From positions 175,282 to 239,281 of the forward strand of contig CAWATG010000015.1 in NCBI GenBank assembly GCA_963785035.1: DNA of 64,000 nucleotides, given 5' to 3'. The position numbers and the translations under genes are program-made. Under the pieces are notes generated by a model. It worked only from the letters and a program-made list of their open reading frames with translations, made no database searches and was not told the origin of the DNA. This DNA comes from an uncultured Acidimicrobiia bacterium. Its GTDB lineage: Bacteria > Actinomycetota > Acidimicrobiia > IMCC26256 > CAWATG01. Positions 11,713 through 46,887 of the stretch are shown here, in pieces (the first letter of the stretch is position 1; each line of letters begins with the position of its first letter).

Positions 11713-14700
11713 CTAGAGGCCCGCGAACGCCGCGTCGTAGAGGGCGGCCTGCTCGCGTTCGTGGACGGCAGCGCTACCTGTTGCAGGGCTGGGGCTCCCG
11801 GGGCGCGCCGTGCCTGACACGGTGATCGTCGACGGAACGATGTCGTGCAAGAACTCGACGGCGAAGTGGAACGCGCCCATGTTCTGCGGCTCTTCCTGTA
11901 CCCACATCGCTTGTTCCAACATGGGGTAGCGCTCGACGGTCGCAGCAAGTTCGGCCAACGGCGTCGGGTAGAGCTGTTCAACTCGCGCAATCGCTACGGG
12001 GAGATGAAGCTCGTCGCGTCGCGCGATCAGTTCATGTCCGATCTTGCCGGTGCAGAGAATCAGGCGCCGTACCGTTGCGGGATCCGCGCCGCGATCATCG
12101 AGCATGATCGGCTGGAATCCGCGATCGGTGAAGTCCGTGACGGCCGACGTCGCCGCCGGCATGCGCAGGTAACGCTTTGGTGTGAAGACCACGAGCGGCT
12201 TGCGGATCGGTTCGATGATCTGGCGTCGGAGTACGTGGAAGTACTGCGACGCGGTACTCGGGTAGACCACGCGGATGTTGTCGTCCGCGCAGAGGGTCAG
12301 GAAGCGCTCGAGACGTGCGCTCGAGTGTTCGGGACCCTGACCTTCGAAACCGTGCGGGAGGAGCATGGTCAGGCCACTGCGTTGGCCCCACTTGTCCTCG
12401 GCGGCGACGATGAACTGGTCGATGATCGTCTGTGCGCCGTTGGCGAAATCGCCGAACTGTGCTTCCCAGCAGACGAGCGCGTCGAGATCCGCAACGGAGT
12501 AGCCATACTCGAATCCGAGCGCGGCGAACTCGCTGAGGACCGAGTCGTAGACCATGAAAGGCGCTTGTTCATTGCCGAGGTGCTCGAGAGGGGCGTATTC
12601 GGCCTCGGTGTGGAAGTCCACCAGGGTCGAATGGCGTTGCGAGAACGTGCCGCGTCGTGTGTCCTGTCCGGCGAGTCGAACGGGTGTGCCATCGAGGAGC
12701 AGCGATCCGAATGCAAGAGCCTCGCCGGTTGCCCAATCGACTTGGTCTGCAAGGAAGGACGTCTTGCGCGCTTCGAGGATTCGCCGAAGTTTCGGGTGAA
12801 CCGTGAACCCGTCGGGAAACTCGACAAGCGTCTCGATGATCTGTTCCAGTTGCTCACGCGGCACTGCAGTATCCGCGCAGTGGAGCTTCGTGACGTTTAC
12901 GGGTGCCAGGTGTTGTCCGTCGGGAAAGCTGTCGATCCAGGGGACTGCCGGTGCGTCGTTATGTGTCGCGTCGAAGGCCTCTTGGAGCTTGCTGCGGTAG
13001 TCGTTGAGGGCGGCTTCGGCTTCCTCGAGTGTGATGTCGCCGCGGTTGACAAGTGACTCTGCATAAAGCTTGCGCACCGACCGGCGCTGGTCGATCAGTG
13101 CATACATGCGAGGTTGCGTGAAGGCCGGTTCGTCACCTTCGTTGTGGCCGTAGCGTCGATAGCAGACCATGTCGACGACGACGTCCTTCTTGAAACGTTG
13201 GCGAAATGCGTATGCCAATTGAATGACCCGCACTGCTGCTTCGGGGTCGTCGCCGTTGACATGAAAGATCGGCGCCTGGACAGCCTTCGCGATGTCGGTT
13301 GCATACACCGTCGAGCGTGCAAAATCCGGAGCCGTGGTGAAACCGAGTTGGTTGTTCACGACGATGTGGATGGTTCCGCCGACGTCGTAGCCTGAGATCT
13401 CTGACAGGTTCAGCGTCTCGGCGACGACGCCCTGGCCAGCGAAGGCCGCGTCGCCGTGTAGCAGTACCGGCAGGACGAGCTCGCGGTCGGTGTCGTCGAG
13501 TCGGTCTTGACGCGCGCGTGCCATTCCTTCTACGACGGGATCGACTGCCTCGAGATGGCTCGGGTTCGCTGCCAACGTGATTCGAATCGCGGATCCTTGT
13601 GGCGAGGTCCACGTGCCGGAGGCGCCGAGGTGGTACTTCACGTCGCCGCTGCCGGAGGGCACATCGGGATCCAGTTGGCCTTCGAACTCCCGAAATATCT
13701 GCGCATAAGACTTGCCGACGATGGTGGCCAGCACATTGAGCCGTCCACGGTGGGCCATGCCCATCATGACCTCGGTGGTTCCAGCAGTCGCTGCTGCGTC
13801 GAGCAGGAAATCCAGAAGCGGTACCAGCGTTTCGGAACCCTCGAGGCTGAAGCGCTTCTGTCCCACGTACTTGGTGTGCAAGAACCGCTCGAAGGCTTCG
13901 GCGTTGTTCAGCGCCAGCAGGATGCGCAGCTTCTCCTCGACGGTCACATCAGTGGTGACGCCTTCGACATGCTCTTGAATCCACGCCTTCTCGTCGTGCT
14001 CTTGGATGTGCATGTATTCGACGCCGATGGTTCGTGCGTAGGCATCGCGCAGGATGCCAAGGATCTCGCGCAGCGCCAAGCGATCGCGGCCCGCAAGCTG
14101 ATTCGTCGGGAATTCGCGGTCCAGGTCCCAGATCGTCAGTCCCCAGTGCATGGGGTCCAGTTCAGGATGGGTCTTCGGCTCCTTGCGAGCAAGGGGGTCG
14201 AGATCCGCGATGAGATGACCACGGACGCGATACATGTTGATGAGTTGGTGCACACGCAGAGTCTTTTCGGCCCAGCCGATGGAATCGCTGTCGGGGGCGT
14301 CGTCGCGACTCCATCGGGCCGGCTCATAGGGAACCGCAAAACTACGGAAGACATCGTCATAGAACTCGTCTTCACCCAGCAGGAGTCGGTGGACGAGCCC
14401 GAGGAATTCGCCACTCTCCGCGCCCTGGATTACGCGGTGGTCGTAGGTGCTGGTGAGCGTGACGACCTTGCTGATGCCGAGACGCGCGATCGTTTCGCGA
14501 TCAGCGCCTTCGTACTCAGGCGGGTAGGCAATCGACCCGACGCCGATTATCGCACCCTGGCCGGGCATCAGGCGCGGGACGGAGTGCATCGTCCCGATGG
14601 TTCCCGGATTCGTGAGCGATACGTTCGTGCCGGCGAAGTCGTCCGGTGTGATCTTGCCGACGCGCACCCGGCGAAGGAGATCCTGATACGCGGCATAGAA

Positions 14701-15339
14701 CTGCGCGAAGTCGAGCGTGTCACTGTTCTTGATGTTCGGCACGAGCAACGTGCGCGTTCCGTCGGACTTCTTTTGGTCGATCGCAAGGCCGAGGTTCACA
14801 TGCTGATTGCGGACGACCCCGGGTTTGCCATCGACTTCGACGTAGGTCGCGCCCATGGACCGGTGCTCCTTGAGGCTTCGCACCACGGCGTAGGCGATGA
14901 GGTGCGTGAAGGAGATCTTGCCGCGACCGGTGCGTGCCAAATGGTTGTTGAGGATCTGCCGGTTGATCTCGAGCAGCTTCGCGGGGACGGTTCGCACCGA
15001 GGTCGCGGTCGGTACGCCGAGACTGGCCTCCATGTTCTCAACGATCCGCGCCGCGGCGCCGCGCAACGGGACTGGGACCGGAACCTCAGACGGAGCAATG
15101 ACAGGGACGACCGGCGCCGCCGTGGGAGCAGGTGTCGACACCGGAGATATGGTGGCTGGCGCAACGATTGCGTTGTTGACGACCGTGCCGACGGGCGCGC
15201 CGGCGGGCACATAGTCGTCGAAGAACTCGCGCCAGCTCTCGGCAACGGACTCCGGCTTGTCCAAGTACTCCCGGTAGAGCTCTTCAATGAGGCCGGAGTT
15301 CGGTCCGAATTGCTCGAAGCGTGTTTCTGTCGGTGCCAT
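11713..15339 (-). CDS. kgd: multifunctional 2-oxoglutarate dehydrogenase/decarboxylase E1 (Kgd/SucA with N-terminal E2-like acyltransferase domain)
   Basis: An intact 1208-aa ORF. It has the actinobacterial architecture: an N-terminal region and Pro/Ala linker, an E2-like catalytic block (LTSTYDHRVIQGAESGEFL), then the ThDP-dependent E1 (RGHL.ADLDPL, GMAHRGRLNVL, EAQFGDFANGAQ). Confidence 0.95.
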   Translation of the reverse strand: MAPTETRFEQFGPNSGLIEELYREYLDKPESVAESWREFFDDYVPAGAPVGTVVNNAIVAPATISPVSTPAPTAAPVVPVIAPSEVPVPVPLRGAAARIVENMEASLGVPTATSVRTVPAKLLEINRQILNNHLARTGRGKISFTHLIAYAVVRSLKEHRSMGATYVEVDGKPGVVRNQHVNLGLAIDQKKSDGTRTLLVPNIKNSDTLDFAQFYAAYQDLLRRVRVGKITPDDFAGTNVSLTNPGTIGTMHSVPRLMPGQGAIIGVGSIAYPPEYEGADRETIARLGISKVVTLTSTYDHRVIQGAESGEFLGLVHRLLLGEDEFYDDVFRSFAVPYEPARWSRDDAPDSDSIGWAEKTLRVHQLINMYRVRGHLIADLDPLARKEPKTHPELDPMHWGLTIWDLDREFPTNQLAGRDRLALREILGILRDAYARTIGVEYMHIQEHDEKAWIQEHVEGVTTDVTVEEKLRILLALNNAEAFERFLHTKYVGQKRFSLEGSETLVPLLDFLLDAAATAGTTEVMMGMAHRGRLNVLATIVGKSYAQIFREFEGQLDPDVPSGSGDVKYHLGASGTWTSPQGSAIRITLAANPSHLEAVDPVVEGMARARQDRLDDTDRELVLPVLLHGDAAFAGQGVVAETLNLSEISGYDVGGTIHIVVNNQLGFTTAPDFARSTVYATDIAKAVQAPIFHVNGDDPEAAVRVIQLAYAFRQRFKKDVVVDMVCYRRYGHNEGDEPAFTQPRMYALIDQRRSVRKLYAESLVNRGDITLEEAEAALNDYRSKLQEAFDATHNDAPAVPWIDSFPDGQHLAPVNVTKLHCADTAVPREQLEQIIETLVEFPDGFTVHPKLRRILEARKTSFLADQVDWATGEALAFGSLLLDGTPVRLAGQDTRRGTFSQRHSTLVDFHTEAEYAPLEHLGNEQAPFMVYDSVLSEFAALGFEYGYSVADLDALVCWEAQFGDFANGAQTIIDQFIVAAEDKWGQRSGLTMLLPHGFEGQGPEHSSARLERFLTLCADDNIRVVYPSTASQYFHVLRRQIIEPIRKPLVVFTPKRYLRMPAATSAVTDFTDRGFQPIMLDDRGADPATVRRLILCTGKIGHELIARRDELHLPVAIARVEQLYPTPLAELAATVERYPMLEQAMWVQEEPQNMGAFHFAVEFLHDIVPSTITVSGTARPGSPSPATGSAAVHEREQAALYDAAFAGL

Positions 15340-30884: not shown

Positions 30885-31508
30885 GGAGCTTCGGGGTTCA
30901 GGAAGGGCGAATTCGTCTCTTCGCCCGAAAATTCTTTCAGATTCTGCGGGTCTGCCTATTTGGTCGACCATCGAAAATGCCGTTACACTTCTCGGACGTC
31001 CCTTCGTCGCTCCCGGAGTCGTTCTGGAAGCGCTGGGATTTTCCGAGTCACATCCCGTACCCGGGCGTCGCCCAGAGTTTTGGGTGCGAATGCTCGAGAC
31101 TTGTTCTCCGATCTCGCTGGTCTTCGCGGCTCGCGCTACGACCACCAACGCGATCTCGGTACGGTCCCCATCTCTCGTGCCCTGCGGATGTGCGGGCGAA
31201 TCTTCTTGAGAGCTGTATGACCTCGACATTCACTCCAGCAAATGTTTGCTTGGTTGCCGACACCACCGACCTTCGGCATGTCATGATGGGCGAATTCGGT
31301 GCGCCGAAGCGCACAACGAGCCTGGCACCGTTGCTCAACCTTCTTGCCGGCGCCACGAACGGGTCTGAAGGCTCGGCCGGGGGCGGTACGCCGGTACCAG
31401 TGTCGTCGCACAACACCGTCTCGTCGCACAACACCGTGTTTTGTCAACCGGTCTCGCGTAGCGATGCTCGCGGGACCTCCGAGTTTTTGAGCTCACAAGG
31501 GGATATCG
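30885..31508 (+). promoter_or_regulatory. long 5' leader / promoter region of rho (candidate autoregulatory attenuator)
   Basis: This is 624 nt with no credible CDS. By eye it has lower GC than its flanks and C-rich/G-poor stretches. It contains an 18-nt tandem repeat. Confidence 0.35.
31403..31438 (+). repeat. 18-nt tandem direct repeat x2 in the rho leader
   Basis: tcgtcgcacaacaccgt occurs at 31403-31419 and again at 31421-31437 (period 18, 17/18 identical). Confidence 0.9.
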
Positions 31509-33413
31509 ATGATGGGTGGTTCTACGGGCCAGCTCGAGCGTTCGAAGCTCGAAGGCAAGGACCGCGAGGAGCTTCATGCCATCGCTGGCGCCATTGGATT
31601 GCGGGGGATCACACGTCTCAAGAAGTCGGACCTCGTCGATGCCATTCTTGGTGCCACCGGCGGCGGATCGGACGGGACGGCGGAAGCCGCTCGTGTGCGA
31701 CCCAAGCGTGTTCGCTCGACGAAGGCGGCCGACGACGATCCAATAGCGTCGGTGCTCGCCGAGGAGGAGGCGCTCACAGCGCGTACGTCGACCACGGTTG
31801 CAGACGACGAGGTGTTGCCCATCCGTCCTGTTCGGAGCCGGTCGGCGAGCAGGGATGTCAGACCCGGCGCCCGCGACCAATGGCGAAAGTCCCGTCTCGT
31901 CGCAAGTGTCGTCGTCCTCATCCTCCGTTGCAGGGCCGACCGCGATGGAGAGCGCCTCAACCGAGAGCACCTCAACCGAGAGCACCTCAACCGGAGACCG
32001 CTTCGCAAGGGACCGTGCAACCGAGAGCACATCGGAGACGGAGGGGGGAGCACGTCCACCTCGACGTCGGATTCTCGGCGCAGTGGACGTGATGCATCCG
32101 GGCCACGCGACTCCGGACAATCACGGAATTCGCAGGCCCAAGGAGATCCGGGAACGTCCCAAGGTCTTGACGGCTCCCGCCGCCCACGTCGTCGCCGCGG
32201 TCGGAACCGTGACCGTAATGAGCGCGGGTACGAAGGTGTCAACGAGCCTCGTGGTGGCGAGTCTCGTGGTGGTGAGGTCAACGTTGCCGAGCCAGTCGAC
32301 GTACAGGGTCTCGTCGACCTGCGCGACGAGGGCTACGGGTTCTTGCGTTCGACGGGCTACCTTCCTGGTCGCGACGATGCCTACATTTCGGCGTCGCAGG
32401 TCCGGAGATTCGCTCTGCGCAAGGGTGATGTGATCAAGGGGACTGCGCGTCCGGCTGCAAGCAATGAGAAGTATCCGGCGTTGTTGCGAGTCGACGAGAT
32501 CAACGGCGTGTCGCCGGACGATGCCCGCGATCGCCCGAGGTTCGCAGATCTCACGCCGCTGTTTCCCGACTCGAAACTCAAGTTGGAGTTGACGTCCGAG
32601 CCTCTCAACATCACGGGCCGCATCGTCGACCTCGTAGCGCCGATCGGTAAGGGTCAACGTGGGCTCATCGTGTCGCCACCGAAGGCGGGTAAGACCACGA
32701 TCCTCAAGCAGCTGGTGTACGCGATCGAGCGCAACAACCCCGAGGTGCACCTCATGGTGCTCCTCGTCGACGAGCGTCCAGAAGAGGTCACGGACATGCG
32801 TCGCCACGTGCTGCGCGGCGAAGTCATCGCAAGCACATTCGACCGTCCGTCGGAAGAACACACGCAGGTCGCCGAGCTCACGATCGAACGCGCCAAGCGA
32901 TTTGTCGAGATGGGTATCGATGTCGTCATCGTCCTTGACGGCATCACACGTCTCGCTCGTGCCTACAACCTGGCCCAACCCGCTTCGGGACGTGTCATGT
33001 CCGGAGGTGTCGACTCGACAGCGTTGTACCCACCGAAGCGATTCTTCGGAGCGGCGCGCAACATCGAGGAGGGTGGTTCGTTGACGATCATTGCGACGGC
33101 TCTGATCGACACGGGTAGCCGGATGGACGAGGTGATCTTCGAGGAGTTCAAGGGAACGGGCAACATGGAGCTGCGCCTCGATCGGCGTCTCGCCGAGCGT
33201 CGGATCTACCCGGCGATCGACGTTGAGCAGTCCAGCACCCGCCATGAGGAATTGCTGTTCGACCGGAGTGGCCTGCAGCAGGTGTGGAAGCTTCGCCGGG
33301 TGCTCAACGCCCTCGAGGGTGGTGCCGGACTGGAGCTGCTGATCGACAAGATCCGCACAACCAAGAGCAACGACGAGTTTCTCGCCGAGATCGCCAAGAC
33401 GCCCGGTGGCTGA
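31509..33413 (+). CDS. rho: transcription termination factor Rho with an actinobacterial-type Arg/Asp/Gly/Ser-rich insertion
   Basis: It has an N-terminal Rho_N helix-hairpin ([34 protein letters not shown]) and a ~230-aa low-complexity insertion. A cold-shock-like RNA-binding domain follows ([14 protein letters not shown]). The RecA-type ATPase has [19 protein letters not shown] and [20 protein letters not shown]. Confidence 0.9.
31951..31995 (+). repeat. 15-nt tandem repeat x3 inside the rho insertion region
   Basis: agcgcctcaaccgag / agcacctcaaccgag / agcacctcaaccgga. In the rho frame this encodes (E/R)(H/L)LNR repeats. Confidence 0.9.
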
Positions 33414-36591: not shown

Positions 36592-37029
36592 TCAGTCGTC
36601 GGCGTTCCCGACATTCATACGTTGCAACAATGCGTGGTCGATGGCCATCCAAATGGTCTTGGAGAACGGGTAGAACACGACCGGTCCGAACAAGCCGATG
36701 GGGAGTAGCAGCCCCATGATCAGTGCAACCGGGATGTCGGGCACCGTCAGGACGATTGCAGTTACCAGGACCAGGGTCATCAGGCCGCCCGAACCGATGA
36801 TGTTGATCGCCAGAGCGCCGGTGAAGTATCCCGCCTCACGCTCGAAGTGCAATCCGCATCCGGGGCAGTCTTCGCGTAGGAACAGGTAGCGACGGAAAAT
36901 ATGGCGGCTGCCGCAACGTGGGCAGGCGAGGGTGCTTCCCCACCACAGGATCCGTCCAGCCGACTGTTTGACTGTGCTCATTGTGTCCAATGCTGGTCGA
37001 GGCCATCGTCCAATGCCGAATAGTGTCAC
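36592..37029 (-). CDS. DUF983 family membrane protein
   Basis: CPRCGSRHIF...CPGCGLHFEREAGYFTGALAINI plus two TM helices. The GTG at 37029 overlaps the stop of the upstream nuclease gene (GTGA). The ATG at 36981 is an alternative start. Confidence 0.7.
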   Translation of the reverse strand: MTLFGIGRWPRPALDTMSTVKQSAGRILWWGSTLACPRCGSRHIFRRYLFLREDCPGCGLHFEREAGYFTGALAINIIGSGGLMTLVLVTAIVLTVPDIPVALIMGLLLPIGLFGPVVFYPFSKTIWMAIDHALLQRMNVGNADD

Positions 37030-38564
37030 ACGTTGGTGGCCGGTTCATCCCCTTCGGCCATCGGTTGCGGCCAGCCCGGCGGAGCAGGCGCGGCGCTGTC
37101 CCGACAGATTGACCGATACCGACATATCCCGCACGTCTCTTGGTCCGCAACACCCATGAAGTCGTCCGTCGACCACATTGCGGTGACGACCTGGTCGAGC
37201 TCAATGCCGATAGCGTCGATTTCGTCGGCATCGGGCTCGAATGGGTCTGGATCGTCCGCCACGTTGTTGGAGAGATACTCATACTGGAGGCGGAGCCGCA
37301 GACCTCGGCCCTCAGCTTCAGGCGCCAAGACCCATGCCTGGAGGCGGGCCTGTGGATCGTCGGCAACGCGAGGGAGGTGCAGCGCTCCCGTCTTGTAATC
37401 ACGAACGTCGAGCACGCCGTCGTGTGACCACAGAGCGTCGATCCGCGCCGAGACGAGAAAGACGCGGCCAGGCGGTCGGTGGAATCGAACGACCGTGCGT
37501 TCGTGACCCAAGGACGTTGCCGCAATCGGACAGTTGCGCGCGTGCGCGGCGATCTCGTCGCGGACACGTCCGGTTTCGGGAACCCCGTGGGCGTCGAGCA
37601 GGTCCGAGACGTGGGTGGCGTCGTGGCACGTGCCCGTTTGATGGATCATGCGCAGCATCTCGTGGACGAATTGTCCGTGGTCTCCTGCTGCTGATGCATT
37701 ACTGACAGGAAGACGCAGGACATCGGCAAGAAACCACAGTCGTTGGCATCGCGCCCATCTCTCGTTGGCGGTCGGATGCAGGGTAATGACGCTCGGGCGA
37801 AGGTCATCGCGAGGAGTCGACGTGGGTGCGGCGCCGCGCACGGCGCGACATGAGGCTATGAACCGGCACGATTGACAGTCATCGCCGGGTACGGGGCGGT
37901 CGCGGTCAGCGCGGCTTCGCAGCGCGGTGACGCGCGTGTTGATTGTGTCGATGAGTTCCGGAACCAATGCTTCGGTGTCGATGACCTCTTCGGTGAGTTC
38001 TCCGTTGAGCAGGTTGGCGGCACTCACACGCATCGGGCGGCCCATGTTTGTCTTGGACAGGCGCACAACGGCGAGTTGTATGTGTTCGACATCCATGACC
38101 GATGTCGTCGGCAGGTGATTCCATGGGGCGAATTGGCGGAGTTCGAGCGTGCCGCTGTCGTCGCGGACGGTCAGGTCCACCCAGCCGCCGAGTCTGACGT
38201 CGAGTCCGGGGACGTCGCTCGGGCTGTCGCAATCGTGGAGGACGAGCTGCGCGGCTCGGGCTCCGTAGAGCGACCGGTACCAGCGACGAAGTTGCCGGTA
38301 CACCGAGCGTTCCTCGGGTTGCAGGGACGCTGGTGCGTCCTCGGGTTGCAGGGACGCTGGTGCGCCGGAGGCGCTCGAAGACGTCGATGCTTGCTGCACG
38401 AGGTCGGTTCGCGCCGCGTGGAGGAACGCGTCGCGCAGCCGTGCGCGATTCGGTGGACTCCACACTCCTGGCTCGGCATCGAGTTCGAGTGCCAGGCGTC
38501 GTGGGCACAGCGTGGGTCCGGCACGAAGCAGATACGGAGTCACGCGTTGGGGTGCCGGGTCCAT
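37026..38564 (-). CDS. tandem PD-(D/E)XK (Cas4/AddB-like) nuclease-domain protein with two Cys4 signatures
   Basis: The C-terminal half has IDALWSHDGVLDVRDYKTG (D...D-x-K), ARLQAWVL, one upstream Cys (WARCQRLWF) and CGICRYRSIC. The N-terminal half has a parallel layout (LCPRRL ... WVDLTV..GTLELRQF ... CQSCRFIASC) but with a degenerate catalytic motif. Confidence 0.6.
   Translation of the reverse strand: MDPAPQRVTPYLLRAGPTLCPRRLALELDAEPGVWSPPNRARLRDAFLHAARTDLVQQASTSSSASGAPASLQPEDAPASLQPEERSVYRQLRRWYRSLYGARAAQLVLHDCDSPSDVPGLDVRLGGWVDLTVRDDSGTLELRQFAPWNHLPTTSVMDVEHIQLAVVRLSKTNMGRPMRVSAANLLNGELTEEVIDTEALVPELIDTINTRVTALRSRADRDRPVPGDDCQSCRFIASCRAVRGAAPTSTPRDDLRPSVITLHPTANERWARCQRLWFLADVLRLPVSNASAAGDHGQFVHEMLRMIHQTGTCHDATHVSDLLDAHGVPETGRVRDEIAAHARNCPIAATSLGHERTVVRFHRPPGRVFLVSARIDALWSHDGVLDVRDYKTGALHLPRVADDPQARLQAWVLAPEAEGRGLRLRLQYEYLSNNVADDPDPFEPDADEIDAIGIELDQVVTAMWSTDDFMGVADQETCGICRYRSICRDSAAPAPPGWPQPMAEGDEPATNV
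38311..38364. repeat. perfect 27-bp tandem duplication inside the nuclease gene
   Basis: tcctcgggttgcagggacgctggtgcg occurs twice back to back (38311-38337 and 38338-38364). It is in frame and encodes the duplicated APASLQPE(D/E) segment. Confidence 0.95.
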
Positions 38565-38616
38565 TGCCTCAACATACGCGCTTCGCGGCCTATGGCAACG
38601 CTTACGATGGCCCGCG

Positions 38617-40419
38617 GTGAACCCTGTTGATGACGAATCGGCGCTGCCGACGCGGCAAGGCCGGCGATGGTGGCGGCGACGATGGGGATGGCTCGTCGGC
38701 GTCGTCGTGCTTGTGGTCTGGGCGTCGGTGGCCGGGCTGATGATGTTGAACGCACGTCGTTCGGCGGATCAAGGCATCGTTCGCCTCGAGGCCTTCGAGC
38801 GGGAGATGACCGCAGCGAAGTTGATCCGTGGTGAGGGATTGGCCTCATTGCGAAAGGCAGAAGCTGACTTTTCCCGTGCGCGAGCGGACATCGAATCACC
38901 ATTGCTCTGGCCCTTGAAGGTTGTGCCGATCATTGGCCGACAGCTGCGCAGCATCGACGCGCTCATCAGCTCGGCCGACACCGTCGTGAGCGCGGGTACA
39001 CAAGCGGTGGCCGATGCACGACGGGAGATCGATGGCAAGCAATCGTCGGGTGCGGGAAGGGTCCTGATCGCCAAACGACTCAACGGCATTGTCCAGCGAA
39101 CCAATAGACGCTTGAGCACGGTGGCGTTGGGGCCGTCGAAGGCGCTCGTGGGGCCGCTTGCCAGTGCGCGTGATCGCTTTGCGGAGAAGCTGGACAAGGT
39201 ACGCGAGGCGCTCGCGGAGACTGGTGAGGCGTCGCGCGGGATGACGGCGTTTCTCGGCGGACCGACTCGGTATCTCGTGATCGCTGCGAACAATGCCGAG
39301 ATGCGTGCCGGTGCGGGCATGTTCCTCAGTGTGGGGGAGTTGGTGGTGTCGGACGGCACCCTCCAGATCGACGAGATGAGGACGGTCACGGACCAACAAT
39401 TGCCGTCGGGCGCTGTCACGATTCGCGACGCGGATCTCCAGGCGCGCTGGGGGTGGATTGCACCGAACCAGGAGTGGCGCAACCTGGCGGCGTCACCCCG
39501 CTTTGCTGCCTCGGCAGAGTTGGCCGTCGAGATGTGGAAGGCGCGCACGGGTCGGGATGTCACGGGCGTACTCGTATTGGATCCAATCGCCCTTCGTGCG
39601 GTGCTCGAGGCCACTGGCCCGGTTGAGGTAGAGGGTGAGCAGATCAGCGCTGAGACGGTTGTCGACGAGATCCTGCATCGTCAGTACTTGGATCTTCCCC
39701 CGGGTTTTGGCGATGACCAGACCGCCCGCCGGGAACGCTTGAGCGAGATCGCCTCGGCGGCGATGCATGGCATTGATGGGAAAGCTTGGGATGTGTCCGT
39801 CATGGTCGAGCAGCTGCAGAGCGCGGCAAAGGGCCGCCATGTTCTCGCGTGGTCGAGCGATCCGGCTCAGCAGGCGGCATGGACCGCTGCCGGAATCGAC
39901 GGGGCACTGCAATCCCATTCGCTGATGGCATCGCTGCAGAGCCAGGGCGGCAACAAGTTGGATCAGTTCCTCGAGCTGAATGGGGTGGTCGAGAGCGCCC
40001 CGGCGGCCAAGGGCGGTCGGGCAGTGACGCTCACCCTGACCATTGAGAACCATGTCCCGATGGGCGAGCCGCGGTATATCTCCGGTCCCACCTTTCAGCT
40101 TCCGGAAGGGGTGTACGCAGGGATCGTGGCCGTGAATGTCCCGGGTGCAGCCTCGGATCTGCGTTTCGAGGGTTCGCCGCGTCTGGTGGCGGCGGGTTCC
40201 GACGGTCCCACGACGGTGATTGCCACTCGGGTCCTGGTGGCTCGAGGTCAAAAGGTCACGGTGGTCGTGACGTTCGTGCTGCCGCGTGGCGTGGATGCAG
40301 TGCGGATCGAGTCGTCGGCTCGGGTGCCGACGATCACCTGGAAGGCCGGCGCTCGGGTGTGGATTGATGACCACGCCCGCACGGTCCGCCTGAAGGAGGT
40401 GCGCCAAGAAGCGAAGTAG
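38617..40419 (+). CDS. DUF4012 domain membrane-anchored protein
   Basis: It has an N-terminal RRWWRRRWGW + TM anchor, then YLVIAANNAEMRAGAGMFLSVGEL...APNQEWRN...VLVLDPIAL blocks typical of DUF4012. The start is uncertain: GTG at 38617 or the listed ATG at 38512, which overlaps the divergent gene. Confidence 0.7.
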   Translation: MNPVDDESALPTRQGRRWWRRRWGWLVGVVVLVVWASVAGLMMLNARRSADQGIVRLEAFEREMTAAKLIRGEGLASLRKAEADFSRARADIESPLLWPLKVVPIIGRQLRSIDALISSADTVVSAGTQAVADARREIDGKQSSGAGRVLIAKRLNGIVQRTNRRLSTVALGPSKALVGPLASARDRFAEKLDKVREALAETGEASRGMTAFLGGPTRYLVIAANNAEMRAGAGMFLSVGELVVSDGTLQIDEMRTVTDQQLPSGAVTIRDADLQARWGWIAPNQEWRNLAASPRFAASAELAVEMWKARTGRDVTGVLVLDPIALRAVLEATGPVEVEGEQISAETVVDEILHRQYLDLPPGFGDDQTARRERLSEIASAAMHGIDGKAWDVSVMVEQLQSAAKGRHVLAWSSDPAQQAAWTAAGIDGALQSHSLMASLQSQGGNKLDQFLELNGVVESAPAAKGGRAVTLTLTIENHVPMGEPRYISGPTFQLPEGVYAGIVAVNVPGAASDLRFEGSPRLVAAGSDGPTTVIATRVLVARGQKVTVVVTFVLPRGVDAVRIESSARVPTITWKAGARVWIDDHARTVRLKEVRQEAK

Positions 40420-45163: not shown

Positions 45164-45868
45164 CTACAGCGGTGGCGGCGAGGCGCTGAGCTGTGCCGGC
45201 GTCGCGGTTGTGGTGTTGAAGGCCGCCCATTCGTTCGTGACGAACTTGAACTTGCCGATGCTTGCGCCACGGTTGTTCGGCCAGTTTGCGCTCAGACTGG
45301 CCCAGTAGTCGACGCCGCTACCGGCGAGGAGGTGCTGTGACCAGAAAGCGCGATCGTCGGGACCATTGGGGTTGTCGAGGATGAGCCGCGCCTGGAACGT
45401 GCCGTAGACCGCGGCGACGTCGTTGGCAGGGATCGTCCCGCGGGGAGCCCAGAAGTGCCATGCATTACGGCCCGCAGAGAAGTCAAGCTTGCCGCTCACG
45501 CCTTCGGACTCGGTCCGCACCGACATCGGATTCGAGACGTTCCCCCCGAAGTCCTCCCGGTATGCGTCTCCCTTCTCCGCTCCCGAGGTGACCAGGATCC
45601 ATTTTCCAGTGCTCCTGGAGAGCAACCAACACTGCACGGCACGCACCTGCACGCGGGTGTTTCCGGTTCCCGGGTTCAACCCCTGGTTTTGCGGAAGCCC
45701 GTCGGCGAAGAGCACGCCCCATGTGACGGCGGACTGCATGCCGGCGTTGTCATTACCCACCTGGATCTCAGGACCGGGTTTCCACGAGTAACCATCAGGA
45801 AGGGGAATGACACCCTCGTGGAATCCACGCTGGTCCGATGCGATCAGGGCAACTGAGTTGATCCCGCC
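45164..45868 (-). CDS. unknown-function domain protein P1 (paralogue of 47058-47987); 5' end unresolved
   Basis: About 60% identical by eye to the C-terminal ~235 aa of P2. The first in-frame start is the GTG at 45760. Clear in-frame homology (GGINSVALIASDQRGFHEGVIPLPDGYSWKPGPEIQ) continues 36 codons further upstream and overlaps the stop of the preceding ORF. Confidence 0.5.
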   Translation of the reverse strand, partial: GGINSVALIASDQRGFHEGVIPLPDGYSWKPGPEIQVGNDNAGMQSAVTWGVLFADGLPQNQGLNPGTGNTRVQVRAVQCWLLSRSTGKWILVTSGAEKGDAYREDFGGNVSNPMSVRTESEGVSGKLDFSAGRNAWHFWAPRGTIPANDVAAVYGTFQARLILDNPNGPDDRAFWSQHLLAGSGVDYWASLSANWPNNRGASIGKFKFVTNEWAAFNTTTATPAQLSASPPPL

Positions 45869-46887
45869 CGACGGTGGCTGTGGTGCGTGTCCGGTTTGGG
45901 CGCACCTGGCTTGCGGGGCCTGATCGGATGCACGCGGCCTCGGCGACTCACGACGTAGTAGCCGCGACGCTGAGCAGTGGTAGCCAGTGCCACGGCGTCG
46001 GAATCCAACATCCCGGTCGCAGCACCGTGGAACTCCGCGTCTCCGTAGGAGTAGACGCCACCATTTCGGGTCAAGAGGTAGTAGCCCATACCCGAATCGG
46101 TTGACGCGATCGAAGTCACGGCGTCGAGGTGGGGGATCACACCCACGGCGCTGCCGAGGAACTTGGCGTCGCCGAACGAGAACACGCCCCCGTCGGAGGC
46201 AACGAGCCAGTAACCCTTACCGCTTGGTGTCGCGGCCATCGCGACGATTGGGCGGTTGAGCGGCATTCCGCCGGTCGAACCGCGGAAAATGGCATCGCCG
46301 TAGGAGAAGACGCCACCGTCGCGAGCCACCTGCCAGTAGCCCTTACCGCTCGGCGTCGATGCCATCCCGACGACTGGCTGGTTGAGACGAATGTCGCCGG
46401 CGGAACCGTGAAAGGCTGCGTCTCCATAGGAGAACACGCCGCCATCGCCGGCAGTCATCCAGTAGCCGCGACCGCCAGGTGTCGTAGCCGAGTCCACGAT
46501 GGGGCTGGCGAGGCGCAGGGTCGAGGCTGCGCCGAAGAATTGTGCGGAGCCGTAGGAGTAGATGGCGCCGTCAGCTGCGATCTCCCAGTAGCCCGACCCG
46601 TCGGGGGTGGAGACCATGGAGACGATGTTCTGGACGGTCGGTTGGTTCTCGGCGGATCCGAAGTAGCCGACCTCATTGGAAGGTGTCGAGGGTTCGGCAG
46701 TGGCGGTCGAGACCGCACGAGCCAATGTCGTCGCTCTTGCAGGAGATGTGGCGCTTGCGGGGGCGTCGCCCAGTGAGAGTCCGAGGGATACGGAACCGGT
46801 GGCGACGATGGTGGCGAGAAGAGCCCCACCCCAGCGCTGTATATGTCGTTTGGTGTTTTTGGGCGCGTTCGACCAAGGCTGCAACAT
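45844..46887 (-). CDS. secreted protein built from ~6 tandem ~41-aa repeats (beta-propeller-like), unknown family
   Basis: It has a signal peptide (..GALLATIVATGSVSLGLSLGDAPASA). The repeats have the consensus GYW.VA.DGGVFSFGDA.F.GS......LN.P(I/V)VGMA.TP.GK. GGGAGGA lies 6 nt before the ATG at 46887. The C-terminal ~30 aa look non-native. Confidence 0.65.
   Translation of the reverse strand: MLQPWSNAPKNTKRHIQRWGGALLATIVATGSVSLGLSLGDAPASATSPARATTLARAVSTATAEPSTPSNEVGYFGSAENQPTVQNIVSMVSTPDGSGYWEIAADGAIYSYGSAQFFGAASTLRLASPIVDSATTPGGRGYWMTAGDGGVFSYGDAAFHGSAGDIRLNQPVVGMASTPSGKGYWQVARDGGVFSYGDAIFRGSTGGMPLNRPIVAMAATPSGKGYWLVASDGGVFSFGDAKFLGSAVGVIPHLDAVTSIASTDSGMGYYLLTRNGGVYSYGDAEFHGAATGMLDSDAVALATTAQRRGYYVVSRRGRVHPIRPRKPGAPKPDTHHSHRRAGSTQLP

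What the first reader, a model, noticed from the sequence alone, without database searches (positions are those of the whole stretch)
37026..38564. Tandem Cas4/AddB-like PD-(D/E)XK nuclease with two Cys4 signatures and a perfect 27-bp in-frame duplication
The 512-aa protein appears to be an internal duplication of a Cas4-like module. Each half has one early Cys and a late CxxCxxxxxC: C20 ... CQSCRFIASC, and WARC ... CGICRYRSIC. That spacing is used by Cas4/AddB nucleases to bind a 4Fe-4S cluster.

Only the C-terminal half keeps a canonical catalytic D...D-x-K (IDAL...LDVRDYK) and the QxxxY-like ARLQAWVL. The N-terminal half reads VDLTV...LELRQF, so it may be an inactive structural copy.

The gene also contains an exact 27-bp tandem duplication (38311-38364) that duplicates APASLQPE(D/E) in a linker. 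Perfect identity of the copies suggests a recent event or length-variable locus. The stop overlaps the start of the DUF983 gene (GTGA). No CRISPR array or cas genes are nearby.
Basis: partly seen in the sequence, partly recalled or inferred. Interest (0 to 1): 0.55.

Follow-up and report, generated by a model that had tools for sequence, protein, structure and literature searches.

The report
Fused dead-plus-active Cas4-like iron-sulfur nuclease
This gene encodes two Cas4/RecB-type iron-sulfur nuclease modules in one chain, the first apparently inactive and the second active; related Acidimicrobiia encode the same two modules as adjacent genes, so it is an uncharacterised but conserved, probably housekeeping, DNA-processing enzyme rather than a CRISPR or mobile element.

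Summary
Window 37026-38564 on the minus strand encodes a 512-aa protein with two Cas4/RecB-like PD-(D/E)XK modules. Each module has a C...CxxCx5C signature, and all eight Cys are conserved in 119 homologues.

Only the C module keeps D376...D389-x-K391 and Q409. The N module has an invariant D130...E141-x-R143.

The protein is not a recent internal duplication. The two halves align only over the last helix plus the Cys motif. Of 89 related Acidimicrobiia loci, 30 encode the halves as two adjacent, translationally coupled genes in the same chromosomal neighbourhood (DUF4012 | N, C ... DUF983 | prmC, prfA). In eight of these a single in-frame stop separates the two genes. Stand-alone N-type proteins keep the four Cys and E-x-R, never have K, and lose D130 in about half of the clusters. 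This supports a dead, Fe-S-holding partner module.

The perfect 27-bp duplication is real. It lies in a loop inside the N module and includes the invariant PEE motif. Strains about 95% identical also carry two copies, but with copy 1 diverged. The same loop has independent tandem expansions in other lineages.

The most likely function is a helicase-independent ssDNA or DNA-end nuclease built as a pseudo-heterodimer. This is a new variant of a known kind and of moderate interest.

The parts
37026..38564 (-). Gene for the 512-aa fused two-module Cas4/RecB-like Fe-S nuclease. The stop codon is at 37026-37028.
   Evidence: The ORF and its translation are. Pfam PF12705 scores 84 bits with two matched stretches. 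More than 200 homologues of about 500 aa are found. The AF2 model has pLDDT 89.9 and pTM 0.88.
37830..38564 (-). N module (about residues 1-245): a Cas4-like fold that is probably catalytically dead and holds an Fe-S cluster.
   Evidence: The N half modelled alone has pLDDT 87. Foldseek matches ACE1 (E 2e-7), AdnA (3.5e-7) and SSO0001 (4e-5). Pfam gives 21.4 bits against a 22-bit cut-off. This module exists as a separate gene of about 235-250 aa in relatives.
38505..38507 (-). C20, the first Cys of the N-module cluster signature.
   Evidence: Present in 114 of 119 homologues; the other 5 have gaps from N-terminal truncation. Present in 78 of 81 stand-alone N-type proteins.
37848..37877 (-). 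C230-x2-C233-x5-C239, the N-module CxxCx5C motif.
   Evidence: Conserved in 119, 119 and 118 of 119 homologues respectively. Conserved in 75 of 81 stand-alone N-type proteins, the rest being gaps.
38136..38177 (-). D130 ... E141-L-R143, the variant triad at the position of the D...(D/E)xK motif in the N module.
   Evidence: All three are 119/119 in the fused family. In stand-alone N-type proteins E141 is 72/81 and R143 is 75/81 and never K, while D130 is only 34/81 and Gly in another 34. They sit on the hairpin strands 131-135 and 140-145.
38311..38364 (-). Perfect 27-bp in-frame tandem duplication encoding APASLQPE(D)/APASLQPE(E). It adds 9 aa to the loop before helix 83-100.
   Evidence: TRF reports 2.0 copies at 100% identity. 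All 37 aligned distant homologues lack the 9 aa. Relatives L001 and L002 have two copies with copy 1 diverged.
38310..38315 (-). E84-E85 of the conserved L-x-P-E-E motif, at the N-cap of helix 83-100. It lies in copy 2 of the repeat.
   Evidence: Both residues are 119/119. In stand-alone N-type proteins E84 is 77/81.
37029..37790 (-). C module (about residues 259-512): the active-type Cas4/RecB-like nuclease.
   Evidence: Pfam PF12705 scores 68 bits on the C half. phrog_69 exonuclease scores 37-44 bits. Relatives encode it as a separate PDDEXK_1 gene of about 255-270 aa.
37746..37748 (-). C273, the first Cys of the C-module cluster signature (WARC).
   Evidence: Conserved in 119 of 119 homologues.
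37392..37439 (-). D376 ... D389-Y-K391, the catalytic motifs II and III of the C module.
   Evidence: D376 is 118/119, D389 is 118/119 (with one E each) and K391 is 119/119.
37338..37340 (-). Q409 of RLQAW, a motif IV-like Gln. The Tyr of QxxxY is replaced by L, M or A.
   Evidence: Q409 is 119/119. Position 413 is L in 83, M in 20 and A in 12 sequences.
37104..37133 (-). C478-x2-C481-x5-C487, the C-module CxxCx5C motif.
   Evidence: Each Cys is 119/119.
37530..37643 (-). H308-x4-C313 ... H341-x3-C345, an extra invariant His/Cys quartet in the helical insert of the C module. It may be an additional metal site.
   Evidence: All four residues are 119/119. Each pair lies at the C-terminal end of a helix, 295-310 and 333-344. 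The residues are also present in the split C-type protein of L089. Their geometry was not tested.
36592..37029 (-). Downstream DUF983 gene. The longest ORF starts at GTG 37029; an alternative ATG lies at 36981. It is a syntenic neighbour, not shown to be functionally linked.
   Evidence: Pfam PF06170 scores 33.7 bits. Start-codon options are read. DUF983 lies downstream of the nuclease in 58 of 85 loci, often with another gene in between.

Best explanation
The gene encodes a single-chain pseudo-heterodimer of two old paralogous Cas4/RecB-type PD-(D/E)XK modules. Each module is stapled by its own four-Cys iron-sulfur cluster.

The C module (residues about 259-490) is the catalytic nuclease. It carries H301, D376, D389-x-K391 and Q409. 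The N module (about 1-245) keeps the fold, the cluster and an invariant E-x-R, but lacks the catalytic Lys. It most likely acts as a non-catalytic partner that stabilises the enzyme or binds or threads DNA for the active module.

The protein arose by fusion of two adjacent, translationally coupled genes. These genes still exist separately at the same chromosomal site in a sister clade of Acidimicrobiia.

The fold and the conservation are shown here. From the closest structures (AdnA nuclease domain, ACE1, Cas4) I infer that it cuts single-stranded DNA or DNA ends threaded through a narrow channel, without a helicase of its own. It probably works in chromosomal DNA repair or recombination rather than in CRISPR or defence. 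That functional step is inferred, not shown.

The 27-bp duplication is a tolerated 9-aa expansion of a flexible surface loop that is prone to slippage across the family. It leaves one intact PEE motif next to helix 83-100.
For: **Two Cas4/RecB-like folds**
- Pfam PF12705 scores 84 bits with two matched stretches.
- The full AF2 model has pLDDT 89.9 and pTM 0.88. Its best PDB matches are AdnA (E 1e-8), ACE1 (1e-7, TM 0.66), Cas4 SSO0001 and AddB.
- The N half alone gives the same set of matches.

**Conservation in 119 full-length homologues**
- All eight Cys are conserved.
- H301, D376, D389, K391 and Q409 are conserved in the C module.
- E84, E85, D130, E141 and R143 are conserved in the N module.

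**Split orthologues**
- An exhaustive HMM search with the N-half profile finds 216 cluster representatives. Of the top 150, 81 are stand-alone proteins of 200-275 aa, most ending 4-9 residues after CxxCx5C.
- In all four split loci examined, the next gene is a PDDEXK_1 gene (a 152-aa fragment at the end of a short contig in L087; 254-271 aa in the other three).
- The split pair in L089 sits in the same DUF4012 | N, C, TLP1-like, DUF983 | prmC, prfA arrangement as the window.
- Of 89 loci, 59 are fused and 30 split. Eight split loci differ by a single in-frame stop; others show ATGnnTGA or GTGA start/stop overlaps.
- An NJ tree of the C modules puts 27 of 29 split loci in one pure clade.

**A dead N module**
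- Position 143 is never K.
- D130 is Gly in 34 of 81 stand-alone clusters, while the Cys, E84, E141 and R143 stay conserved.

**Housekeeping rather than defence**
- The neighbourhood is fixed across Acidimicrobiia: prmC in 63 and prfA in 61 of 85 loci.
- PADLOC hits are weak, at most 20 bits.
- TIGR00372 cas4 scores 12 bits against a 65-bit cut-off.
- No CRISPR-like repeats are found.

**Published properties of the closest structures**
- The single-strand threading channel of ACE1 and AdnA and the 'iron staple' role of the four Cys are described in PMC12094033.
Against: - No biochemical data exist for any member of the family.
- No helicase, recombinase or other DNA-repair gene is in the conserved neighbourhood, so the pathway assignment is guilt-by-fold only.
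- The D130/E141/R143/E84/E85 set is invariant within the fused clade. That is stronger conservation than a purely structural role needs, so residual metal binding or an unusual catalytic role cannot be excluded.
- The direction of the event (fusion or fission) is inferred from the greater diversity of the split forms, not from a rooted species tree.
- Cluster type ([4Fe-4S] or [2Fe-2S]) cannot be read from sequence; Cas4 proteins are known with either (PMC5704561).
Confidence: 0.62

Rival explanations
1. Both modules are active nucleases. The N module would use a non-canonical E84/E85-D130-E141-x-R143 site, making the protein a dual nuclease that cuts two strands or two ends, as the two nuclease domains of AddAB and AdnAB do.
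For: Every residue of the N-module site is invariant in 119 fused homologues. The N module has the full Cas4-like fold and its own cluster. AddAB and AdnAB use two nuclease domains (literature cited in PMC12094033).
Against: Lys never occurs at position 143 in 119 fused and 81 stand-alone sequences. The motif II Asp is replaced by Gly, Pro or Ala in more than half of the stand-alone orthologous clusters. The N half scores below the Pfam cut-off and has no PHROG or PADLOC nuclease hit.
Confidence: 0.1
2. It is a stand-alone anti-phage or anti-plasmid defence nuclease, of the solo-Cas4 or ACE-like kind, rather than a repair enzyme.
For: The best structural matches include ACE1, a partner of defence Argonautes. 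Solo-Cas4 proteins have been proposed to act as independent immune systems (PMC12094033). There are weak PADLOC hits to Aga_Cas4-like_Nuc and DruK at 17-20 bits.
Against: The gene sits in one fixed place next to prfA and prmC in fused and split forms across the class, which points to vertical inheritance of a core gene. No Argonaute, cas, restriction-modification or other defence gene was found among the neighbours scanned. The PADLOC scores are marginal.
Confidence: 0.12
3. One reading: a recent internal tandem duplication of one Cas4-like module within a single gene, with the N copy now decaying.
For: Both halves have the same domain family and the same Cys spacing.
Against: The profiles of the two halves align over only 46 columns. 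The N half is under strict purifying selection. Both modules exist as separate genes in a sister clade.
Confidence: 0.03
4. The main role is not nucleolytic. The two clusters, and possibly the H2C2 site, would make it a redox or iron sensor, or a structural nucleic-acid-binding protein, as in the inactivated Cas4-like nucleocapsid protein of virus TTV1.
For: It carries two Fe-S signatures plus an invariant His/Cys quartet. An inactivated Cas4 derivative with a structural role is known (PMC5704561).
Against: The C module keeps every catalytic residue in 118-119 of 119 sequences. That is the pattern expected of an active enzyme.
Confidence: 0.08

Closest known systems
Nuclease domain of mycobacterial AdnA/AdnB (AdnAB helicase-nuclease; PDB 7SJR, 6PPR, 9NP6)
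   Same: It is the best Foldseek match for the whole model (E 1e-8) and a top match for the N half (E 3.5e-7). It is a RecB-like fold with a four-Cys Fe-S cluster. Two nuclease modules work together in one complex. It is also from an actinobacterial lineage.
   Different: AdnA and AdnB each carry a UvrD-like motor domain, and both nuclease domains are active. This protein has no helicase domain: 512 aa with only PDDEXK_1. One of its modules lacks the catalytic Lys. There is no sequence-level match to any PDB chain.
[quoted passage not shown]
   Same: It is the closest stand-alone structure (TM 0.66 normalised to ACE1; E 1e-7). It has a D-DxK site, one N-terminal and three C-terminal Cys holding an Fe4S4 cluster, and no helicase. 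It is described as threading ssDNA through a narrow channel.
   Different: ACE1 is a single module of about 270 aa encoded next to a long-A pAgo, with which it forms a complex. Here two modules are fused, no Argonaute gene is nearby, and the context is housekeeping.
CRISPR-associated Cas4 (SSO0001, Pcal_0546; TIGR00372, PF01930)
   Same: It shares the fold, the C...CxxCx5C Fe-S signature and the D...ExK-type site.
   Different: TIGR00372 scores 12 bits against a 65-bit cut-off. No cas genes or CRISPR array are present. The architecture is tandem. By Pfam the protein belongs to the non-CRISPR PF12705 branch; that branch is discussed in PMC5704561, which describes no tandem form.
AddB nuclease domain (AddAB; PDB 3U4Q, 4CEH)
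   Same: It is an Fe-S 'iron staple' RecB-like nuclease domain (Foldseek E 4e-5). An active domain is paired with an inactivated homologous domain within one machine.
   Different: In AddB the inactivated part is a helicase-like domain, not a nuclease fold. AddAB is a motor complex of about 2,400 aa.
RecC C-terminal inactivated nuclease-like domain of RecBCD (from my own knowledge: Rigden 2005; Singleton et al. 2004)
   Same: This is a functional analogy only. A dead PD-(D/E)XK fold is kept beside an active RecB nuclease and serves as a channel or guide for a DNA strand.
   Different: RecC has no Fe-S cluster and is part of a helicase complex. No homology to RecC was tested or found here.

Membership tests
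PD-(D/E)XK nuclease superfamily, Pfam PF12705 (PDDEXK_1) | Score above the Pfam gathering threshold | tested here: met
   The whole protein scores 84.1 bits against a 22-bit cut-off and the C half scores 68 bits. The N half alone scores 21.2-21.4 bits, just below the cut-off.
PD-(D/E)XK nuclease superfamily, Pfam PF12705 (PDDEXK_1) | Catalytic D ... (D/E)-x-K on adjacent beta-strands | tested here: met
   The C module has D376 and D389-Y-K391, conserved in 118-119 of 119 sequences, on strands 369-381 and 384-391. The N module does not meet this feature: it has E141-x-R143 and never K.
PD-(D/E)XK nuclease superfamily, Pfam PF12705 (PDDEXK_1) | RecB/Cas4-like three-dimensional fold | tested here: met
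   Foldseek probability is 1.00 to AdnA, ACE1, SSO0001 and AddB, both for the whole model and for the N half alone.
Cas4 family in the broad sense (Fe-S RecB-like nucleases) | One N-terminal Cys plus C-x2-C-x5-C near the C-terminus of the module | tested here: met
   Both modules have the pattern: C20/C230/C233/C239 and C273/C478/C481/C487. Conservation is about 100% in 119 homologues. Actual cluster binding cannot be tested with these tools.
CRISPR-associated Cas4 (TIGR00372 equivalog) | Score above the NCBIfam cut-off | tested here: not met
   The score is 11.8-12 bits against a 65-bit cut-off.
CRISPR-associated Cas4 (TIGR00372 equivalog) | Encoded with cas1/cas2 or next to a CRISPR array | tested here: not met
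   The neighbours are rho, DUF1385, prfA, prmC, DUF983, DUF4012 and glycosyltransferases. No array-like repeats are found.
AddAB/AdnAB/RecBCD-type helicase-nucleases | SF1 (UvrD-like) helicase domain fused to the nuclease domain | tested here: not met
   Only PDDEXK_1 is detected in the 512 aa. No helicase gene is in the conserved neighbourhood.
ACE1 (pAgo-associated Cas4 family enzyme) | Co-encoded with a long-A prokaryotic Argonaute | tested here: not met
   No Argonaute domains were found among the genes flanking the nuclease in the window or in loci L003-L005, L086, L088 and L089.
Acidimicrobiia two-module (N-type + C-type) Cas4-like family, defined here | N-type module (4 Cys, PEE, E-x-R) followed by a C-type PDDEXK_1 module, either fused or as adjacent genes | tested here: met
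   The window protein is a fused member. Of 89 loci, 59 are fused and 30 split. Synteny is shared between the two forms.

The most novel reading that the evidence does not exclude
The N-type module would define a previously unrecognised family of non-catalytic, Fe-S-bearing Cas4-like proteins. When stand-alone they are invisible to Pfam and annotated 'hypothetical protein'. Together with the C-type nuclease they would form a helicase-independent heterodimeric DNA-end or ssDNA-processing enzyme that is a core, vertically inherited part of genome maintenance in Acidimicrobiia. The enzyme might carry a third metal site (H308/C313/H341/C345) and might stand in for, or feed, the end-resection machinery of this class.
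Probability: 0.25. Interest if true: 0.55.

Novelty: new variant of a known kind. Interest (0 to 1): 0.4.

Why it matters
Fe-S RecB/Cas4-like nucleases are known as single modules (Cas4, ACE1, EXO5) or attached to helicases (AddB, AdnAB, Dna2). This family shows a third arrangement. A dead module and an active module, each with its own cluster signature, work as a pair without a helicase. The pair is encoded either as two coupled genes or as one fused chain, at a fixed housekeeping locus throughout a poorly studied, largely uncultured actinobacterial class.

The family offers a natural fused/split pair for studying how an inactive nuclease paralogue serves an active one. It also gives an annotation to a set of 'hypothetical proteins', the stand-alone N-type genes. 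It does not change any major concept, and its biological role remains inferred.

Tried and rejected
1. **Sequence search of the PDB.** The family profile and the C half alone gave no meaningful match (the only hit was ferritin at E 0.63). Only fold comparison worked.
2. **NCBIfam.** No model reached significance. cas4 scored 12 bits and SPASM 14 bits, both on the CxxC motif only.
3. **PADLOC and PHROGs on the N half.** No hits.
4. **The 425-aa cluster members.** I suspected an alternative repeat copy number or a frameshift. DNA alignment shows an intact upstream frame with the same ATG, so these are only different start calls. The likely cause is the divergent DUF4012 call overlapping the 5' end.
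5. **Copy-number variation of the 27-bp unit.** The window and the two relatives whose DNA I read (L001, L002) all have two copies. No closer or further population data were available.
6. **The repeat finder.** With a 12-nt seed it did not list the adjacent 27-bp copies. TRF did.
7. **Literature.** Searches for a tandem or duplicated Cas4-like protein in Actinobacteria found nothing relevant. The Cas4 phylogenomics paper describes helicase fusions of PF12705 but no tandem form.
8. **Operon link to DUF983.** Rejected as evidence of function. It is co-oriented in 58 of 85 loci, but often with a thiolase-like gene of about 1.5 kb, or an opposite-strand gene, in between.
9. **Geometry of the H308/C313/H341/C345 quartet.** It could not be measured because model coordinates are not exposed.
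Full report
**1. What is in the sequence**

The ORF at window 37026-38564 lies on the minus strand. It starts with ATG and encodes 512 aa.

- The N half has C20 and C230-QS-C233-RFIAS-C239.
- The C half has C273 (WARC) and C478-GI-C481-RYRSI-C487.
- The C half also has ID376AL, LDVRD389-Y-K391 and RLQ409AWVL.
- The N half has VD130LTV and LE141-L-R143QF.

TRF confirms a 27-bp unit repeated exactly twice at 38311-38364 (100% matches, score 108). It encodes APASLQPED-APASLQPEE. A perfect adjacent 27-nt match is not a chance event in 64 kb (my estimate is about 1e-11).

The window has 60-66% G+C throughout. Its genes are rho, DUF1385, prfA, prmC, DUF983, the nuclease, a divergent DUF4012 gene and a polysaccharide gene cluster. 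No CRISPR-like repeats or cas genes are present.

**2. Both halves are Cas4/RecB-like modules, but very different from each other**

- Pfam PF12705 (PDDEXK_1) scores 84 bits on the whole protein with two matched stretches.
- The C half scores 68 bits. The N half scores 21.4 bits, against a 22-bit cut-off.
- Fourteen of 23 N halves from homologues match PF12705 at E <= 0.01.
- An AlphaFold2 model built on 38 homologues is confident (pLDDT 89.9, pTM 0.88).
- Its best PDB matches are the AdnA subunit of mycobacterial AdnAB (E 1e-8), ACE1 (E 1e-7, TM 0.66 over the ACE1 chain), Cas4 SSO0001 and AddB.
- The N half modelled alone (pLDDT 87) hits the same set: ACE1 at 2e-7, AdnA at 3.5e-7 and SSO0001 at 4e-5.

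So the N half truly has this fold. Profile-profile comparison of the two halves, however, aligns only the last helix and the CxxCx5C motif (46 columns, probability 81%, E 1.2e-5). The halves are old paralogues, not a recent internal duplication.

**3. Conservation**

The protein has more than 200 homologues of about 500 aa at 41-52% identity. Where named, all come from Acidimicrobiia metagenome-assembled genomes and are called 'PD-(D/E)XK nuclease family protein'. A scan of one genome per species found relatives in 163 genomes. The 80 listed are Acidimicrobiia or unclassified Actinomycetota MAGs, plus five records whose titles read 'uncultured Bifidobacteriaceae'.

In 119 full-length sequences:
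- all eight cluster Cys are conserved. The only exceptions are five N-terminally truncated sequences at C20 and one Gly at C239;
- in the C module, G297, H301, H354, E355, K391 and Q409 are invariant, and D376 and D389 are 118/119;
- in the N module, E84, E85, G126, G127, D130, E141, R143 and R168 are invariant;
- four further residues of the C module (H308, C313, H341, C345) are also invariant. Each His/Cys pair sits at the end of a helix, which suggests an additional metal site. I could not measure the geometry.

**4. The key finding: the same two modules are separate genes in relatives**

An exhaustive HMM search of 1.84 billion cluster representatives with the N-half profile found only 216 proteins at E <= 1e-3. 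Of the best 150, 81 are stand-alone proteins of 200-275 aa. They cover the whole N profile, and most end 4-9 residues after CxxCx5C.

These proteins have no Pfam hit on record and, where named, are 'hypothetical protein [Acidimicrobiia bacterium]'. In all four loci examined, the gene immediately downstream on the same strand is a PDDEXK_1 gene (L086, L087, L088, L089). It is 254-271 aa in three of them. In L087 it is a 152-aa fragment cut by the end of a 1.5-kb contig.

In L089 the split pair lies in exactly the window's neighbourhood. The order is DUF4012 (divergent), then N, C, a thiolase-like gene and DUF983, then prmC and prfA (convergent). The split and fused forms are therefore orthologous.

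Of 89 loci, 59 are fused and 30 split. In eight split loci the two ORFs are in the same frame, separated by a single stop codon. In others the start of C overlaps the stop of N (ATGnnTGA or GTGA), which indicates translational coupling. An NJ tree of the C modules puts 27 of 29 split loci in one pure clade. The two exceptions resemble fused-type sequences and may be frameshifts. One fusion (or fission) event therefore explains the pattern. The much greater diversity of split forms (81 clusters at 50% identity against 16 fused ones) makes fusion the more likely direction. This is an inference.

**5. Is the N module dead?**

- Position 143 is Arg in 119 of 119 fused and 75 of 81 stand-alone sequences, and is never Lys.
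- The motif II Asp (D130) is kept in the fused clade. In stand-alone clusters it is present in only 34 of 81 and is Gly in another 34.
- By contrast, the four Cys, E84, Y96, E141, R143 and R168 are retained.

This is the pattern of a module that has lost catalysis but is kept for its fold, its cluster and some conserved surface. The confident relative placement of the two modules in the model (pTM 0.88) fits a fixed pseudo-heterodimer.

**6. Likely mechanism**

The fold relatives AdnA and ACE1 bury the D-DxK site in a narrow channel that admits only single-stranded DNA. The four Cys form an 'iron staple' needed for local structure and, in AddAB, for binding broken DNA ends (PMC12094033, read).

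By analogy, the C module would cut ssDNA or the single-stranded part of DNA ends. The N module would be a non-catalytic partner. I compare this, from my own knowledge and as an analogy only, to the dead nuclease fold of RecC beside RecB. There is no helicase domain and no helicase gene in the conserved neighbourhood.

Several points argue for a core chromosomal role rather than defence:
- the strict positional conservation next to prfA and prmC (prmC in 63 and prfA in 61 of 85 loci);
- the single-clade structure of the fused and split forms;
- the weak PADLOC and Cas4 scores.

The pathway itself is not shown.

**7. The 27-bp duplication**

All 37 aligned distant homologues lack the extra nine residues. 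The insertion lies in the lower-confidence loop (residues 63-82) between helices 39-62 and 83-100 of the N module, not in an inter-domain linker. Copy 2 supplies the invariant P-E84-E85 at the helix N-cap.

Two related sequences at about 95% nucleotide identity (L001 from ERZ27247837 and L002 from SRR22387887) also have two copies. Their copy 1 reads DTPGSLQPED and differs from copy 2 at 3-4 bases. The duplication is therefore older than the split between these strains, and copy number is two in the window and in both relatives whose DNA I read. The perfect identity in the window reflects either retention of the original state or later homogenisation. No outgroup carries the repeat, so the two cannot be told apart.

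Across the family this loop is a recurrent site of independent tandem expansions. P0098 has four copies of SPAHGAG, and P0114 has TSALGTSAL. Several others have 4-5 extra residues, while 104 of 119 sequences have the standard 26-27 residues between R52 and position 86. The duplication is best read as a tolerated slippage product in a flexible loop.

**8. Smaller points**

- The 425-aa members of the window protein's 90% cluster are start-codon miscalls, not variants.
- The GTGA overlap with the DUF983 gene holds only for the longest ORF. Gene calls in relatives use the ATG 48 nt downstream.
- In about half of the related loci a thiolase-like gene of about 1.5 kb (TLP1_add_C) lies between the nuclease and DUF983. 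It is absent from the window.

**9. Comparison with what is known, and verdict**

The protein belongs to the PD-(D/E)XK superfamily (PF12705) and, in the broad sense, to the Fe-S Cas4/RecB-like nucleases. It is not a CRISPR Cas4, not an AddAB/AdnAB-type helicase-nuclease and not an ACE1, because defining features of each were tested and not met.

I found no description of a tandem or two-gene dead-plus-active Cas4-like pair in the papers searched, including the Cas4 phylogenomics survey.

I rate it a new variant of a known kind. The domain family and chemistry are familiar. The paired architecture, the Pfam-invisible N-type partner, the fused/split polymorphism and the extra His/Cys quartet are new details. 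Interest is moderate (0.4).

Noticed in passing
L057, L061-L064, L066, L073, L088 (junction between the N-type and C-type genes); compare window residues 240-258 (about 37791-37847): In eight split loci the two genes are in the same reading frame with a single stop codon between them. The fused and split states can therefore differ by one point mutation.
   Followed up: partly
window 37530-37643 (-), residues H308, C313, H341, C345: An H-x4-C ... H-x3-C quartet is invariant in 119 homologues and in the split C-type protein of L089. It lies at the ends of two helices of an insert in the C module. It may be an extra Zn or Fe site that I do not know from Cas4, ACE1 or AddB.
   Followed up: partly
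Proteins P0098, P0114, P0090, P0106, P0119 (loop equivalent to window residues 63-82): Independent tandem expansions occur in the same loop in other lineages. Examples are four copies of SPAHGAG in P0098 and TSALGTSAL in P0114.
   Followed up: partly
L003 9505-11016, L089 6048-7553, and roughly 1.5-kb gaps in about half of loci L006-L085: A thiolase-like gene of about 500 aa (PF18313 TLP1_add_C) lies between the nuclease and DUF983 in many relatives, but is missing from the window.
   Followed up: no
window 38512-38564 (overlap of the longest DUF4012 ORF, 38512-40419 +, with the nuclease start); L001 1935-1960: The divergent DUF4012 gene call overlaps the 5' end of the nuclease gene. This probably caused the nuclease to be truncated to 425 aa in four public gene calls. 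The conserved N-terminus, including C20, shows that the 512-aa start is correct.
   Followed up: yes
window 46178-46467: A tandem repeat of 126-bp period (2.3 copies, 73% matches) lies inside a 347-aa minus-strand ORF (45844-46887) that has no Pfam hit. It may be a repeat protein.
   Followed up: no
window 31403-31437, 31948-31993, 32243-32276: Three short in-frame tandem repeats (15-18 bp) fall in the 5' part of the longest rho ORF (31509-33413 +) or just upstream of it. The region may correspond to a low-complexity N-terminal insert of Rho.
   Followed up: no
window 11713-15339 (-): A 1208-aa protein combines a 2-oxoacid acyltransferase (E2) catalytic domain with a 2-oxoglutarate dehydrogenase E1. 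This is the fused OdhA/Kgd-type architecture I know from other Actinobacteria.
   Followed up: no
Proteins P0126, P0151, P0272 (cluster representatives): Several 'fused' representatives contain long Arg/Pro/Ala-rich nonsense stretches typical of frameshifted high-G+C translation. Some database members of this family are therefore assembly or gene-calling artefacts.
   Followed up: no
L086 1129-1905: In one split locus a SIR2-family gene lies directly upstream of the N-type gene on the same strand. This was seen only once and not in the syntenic loci.
   Followed up: no
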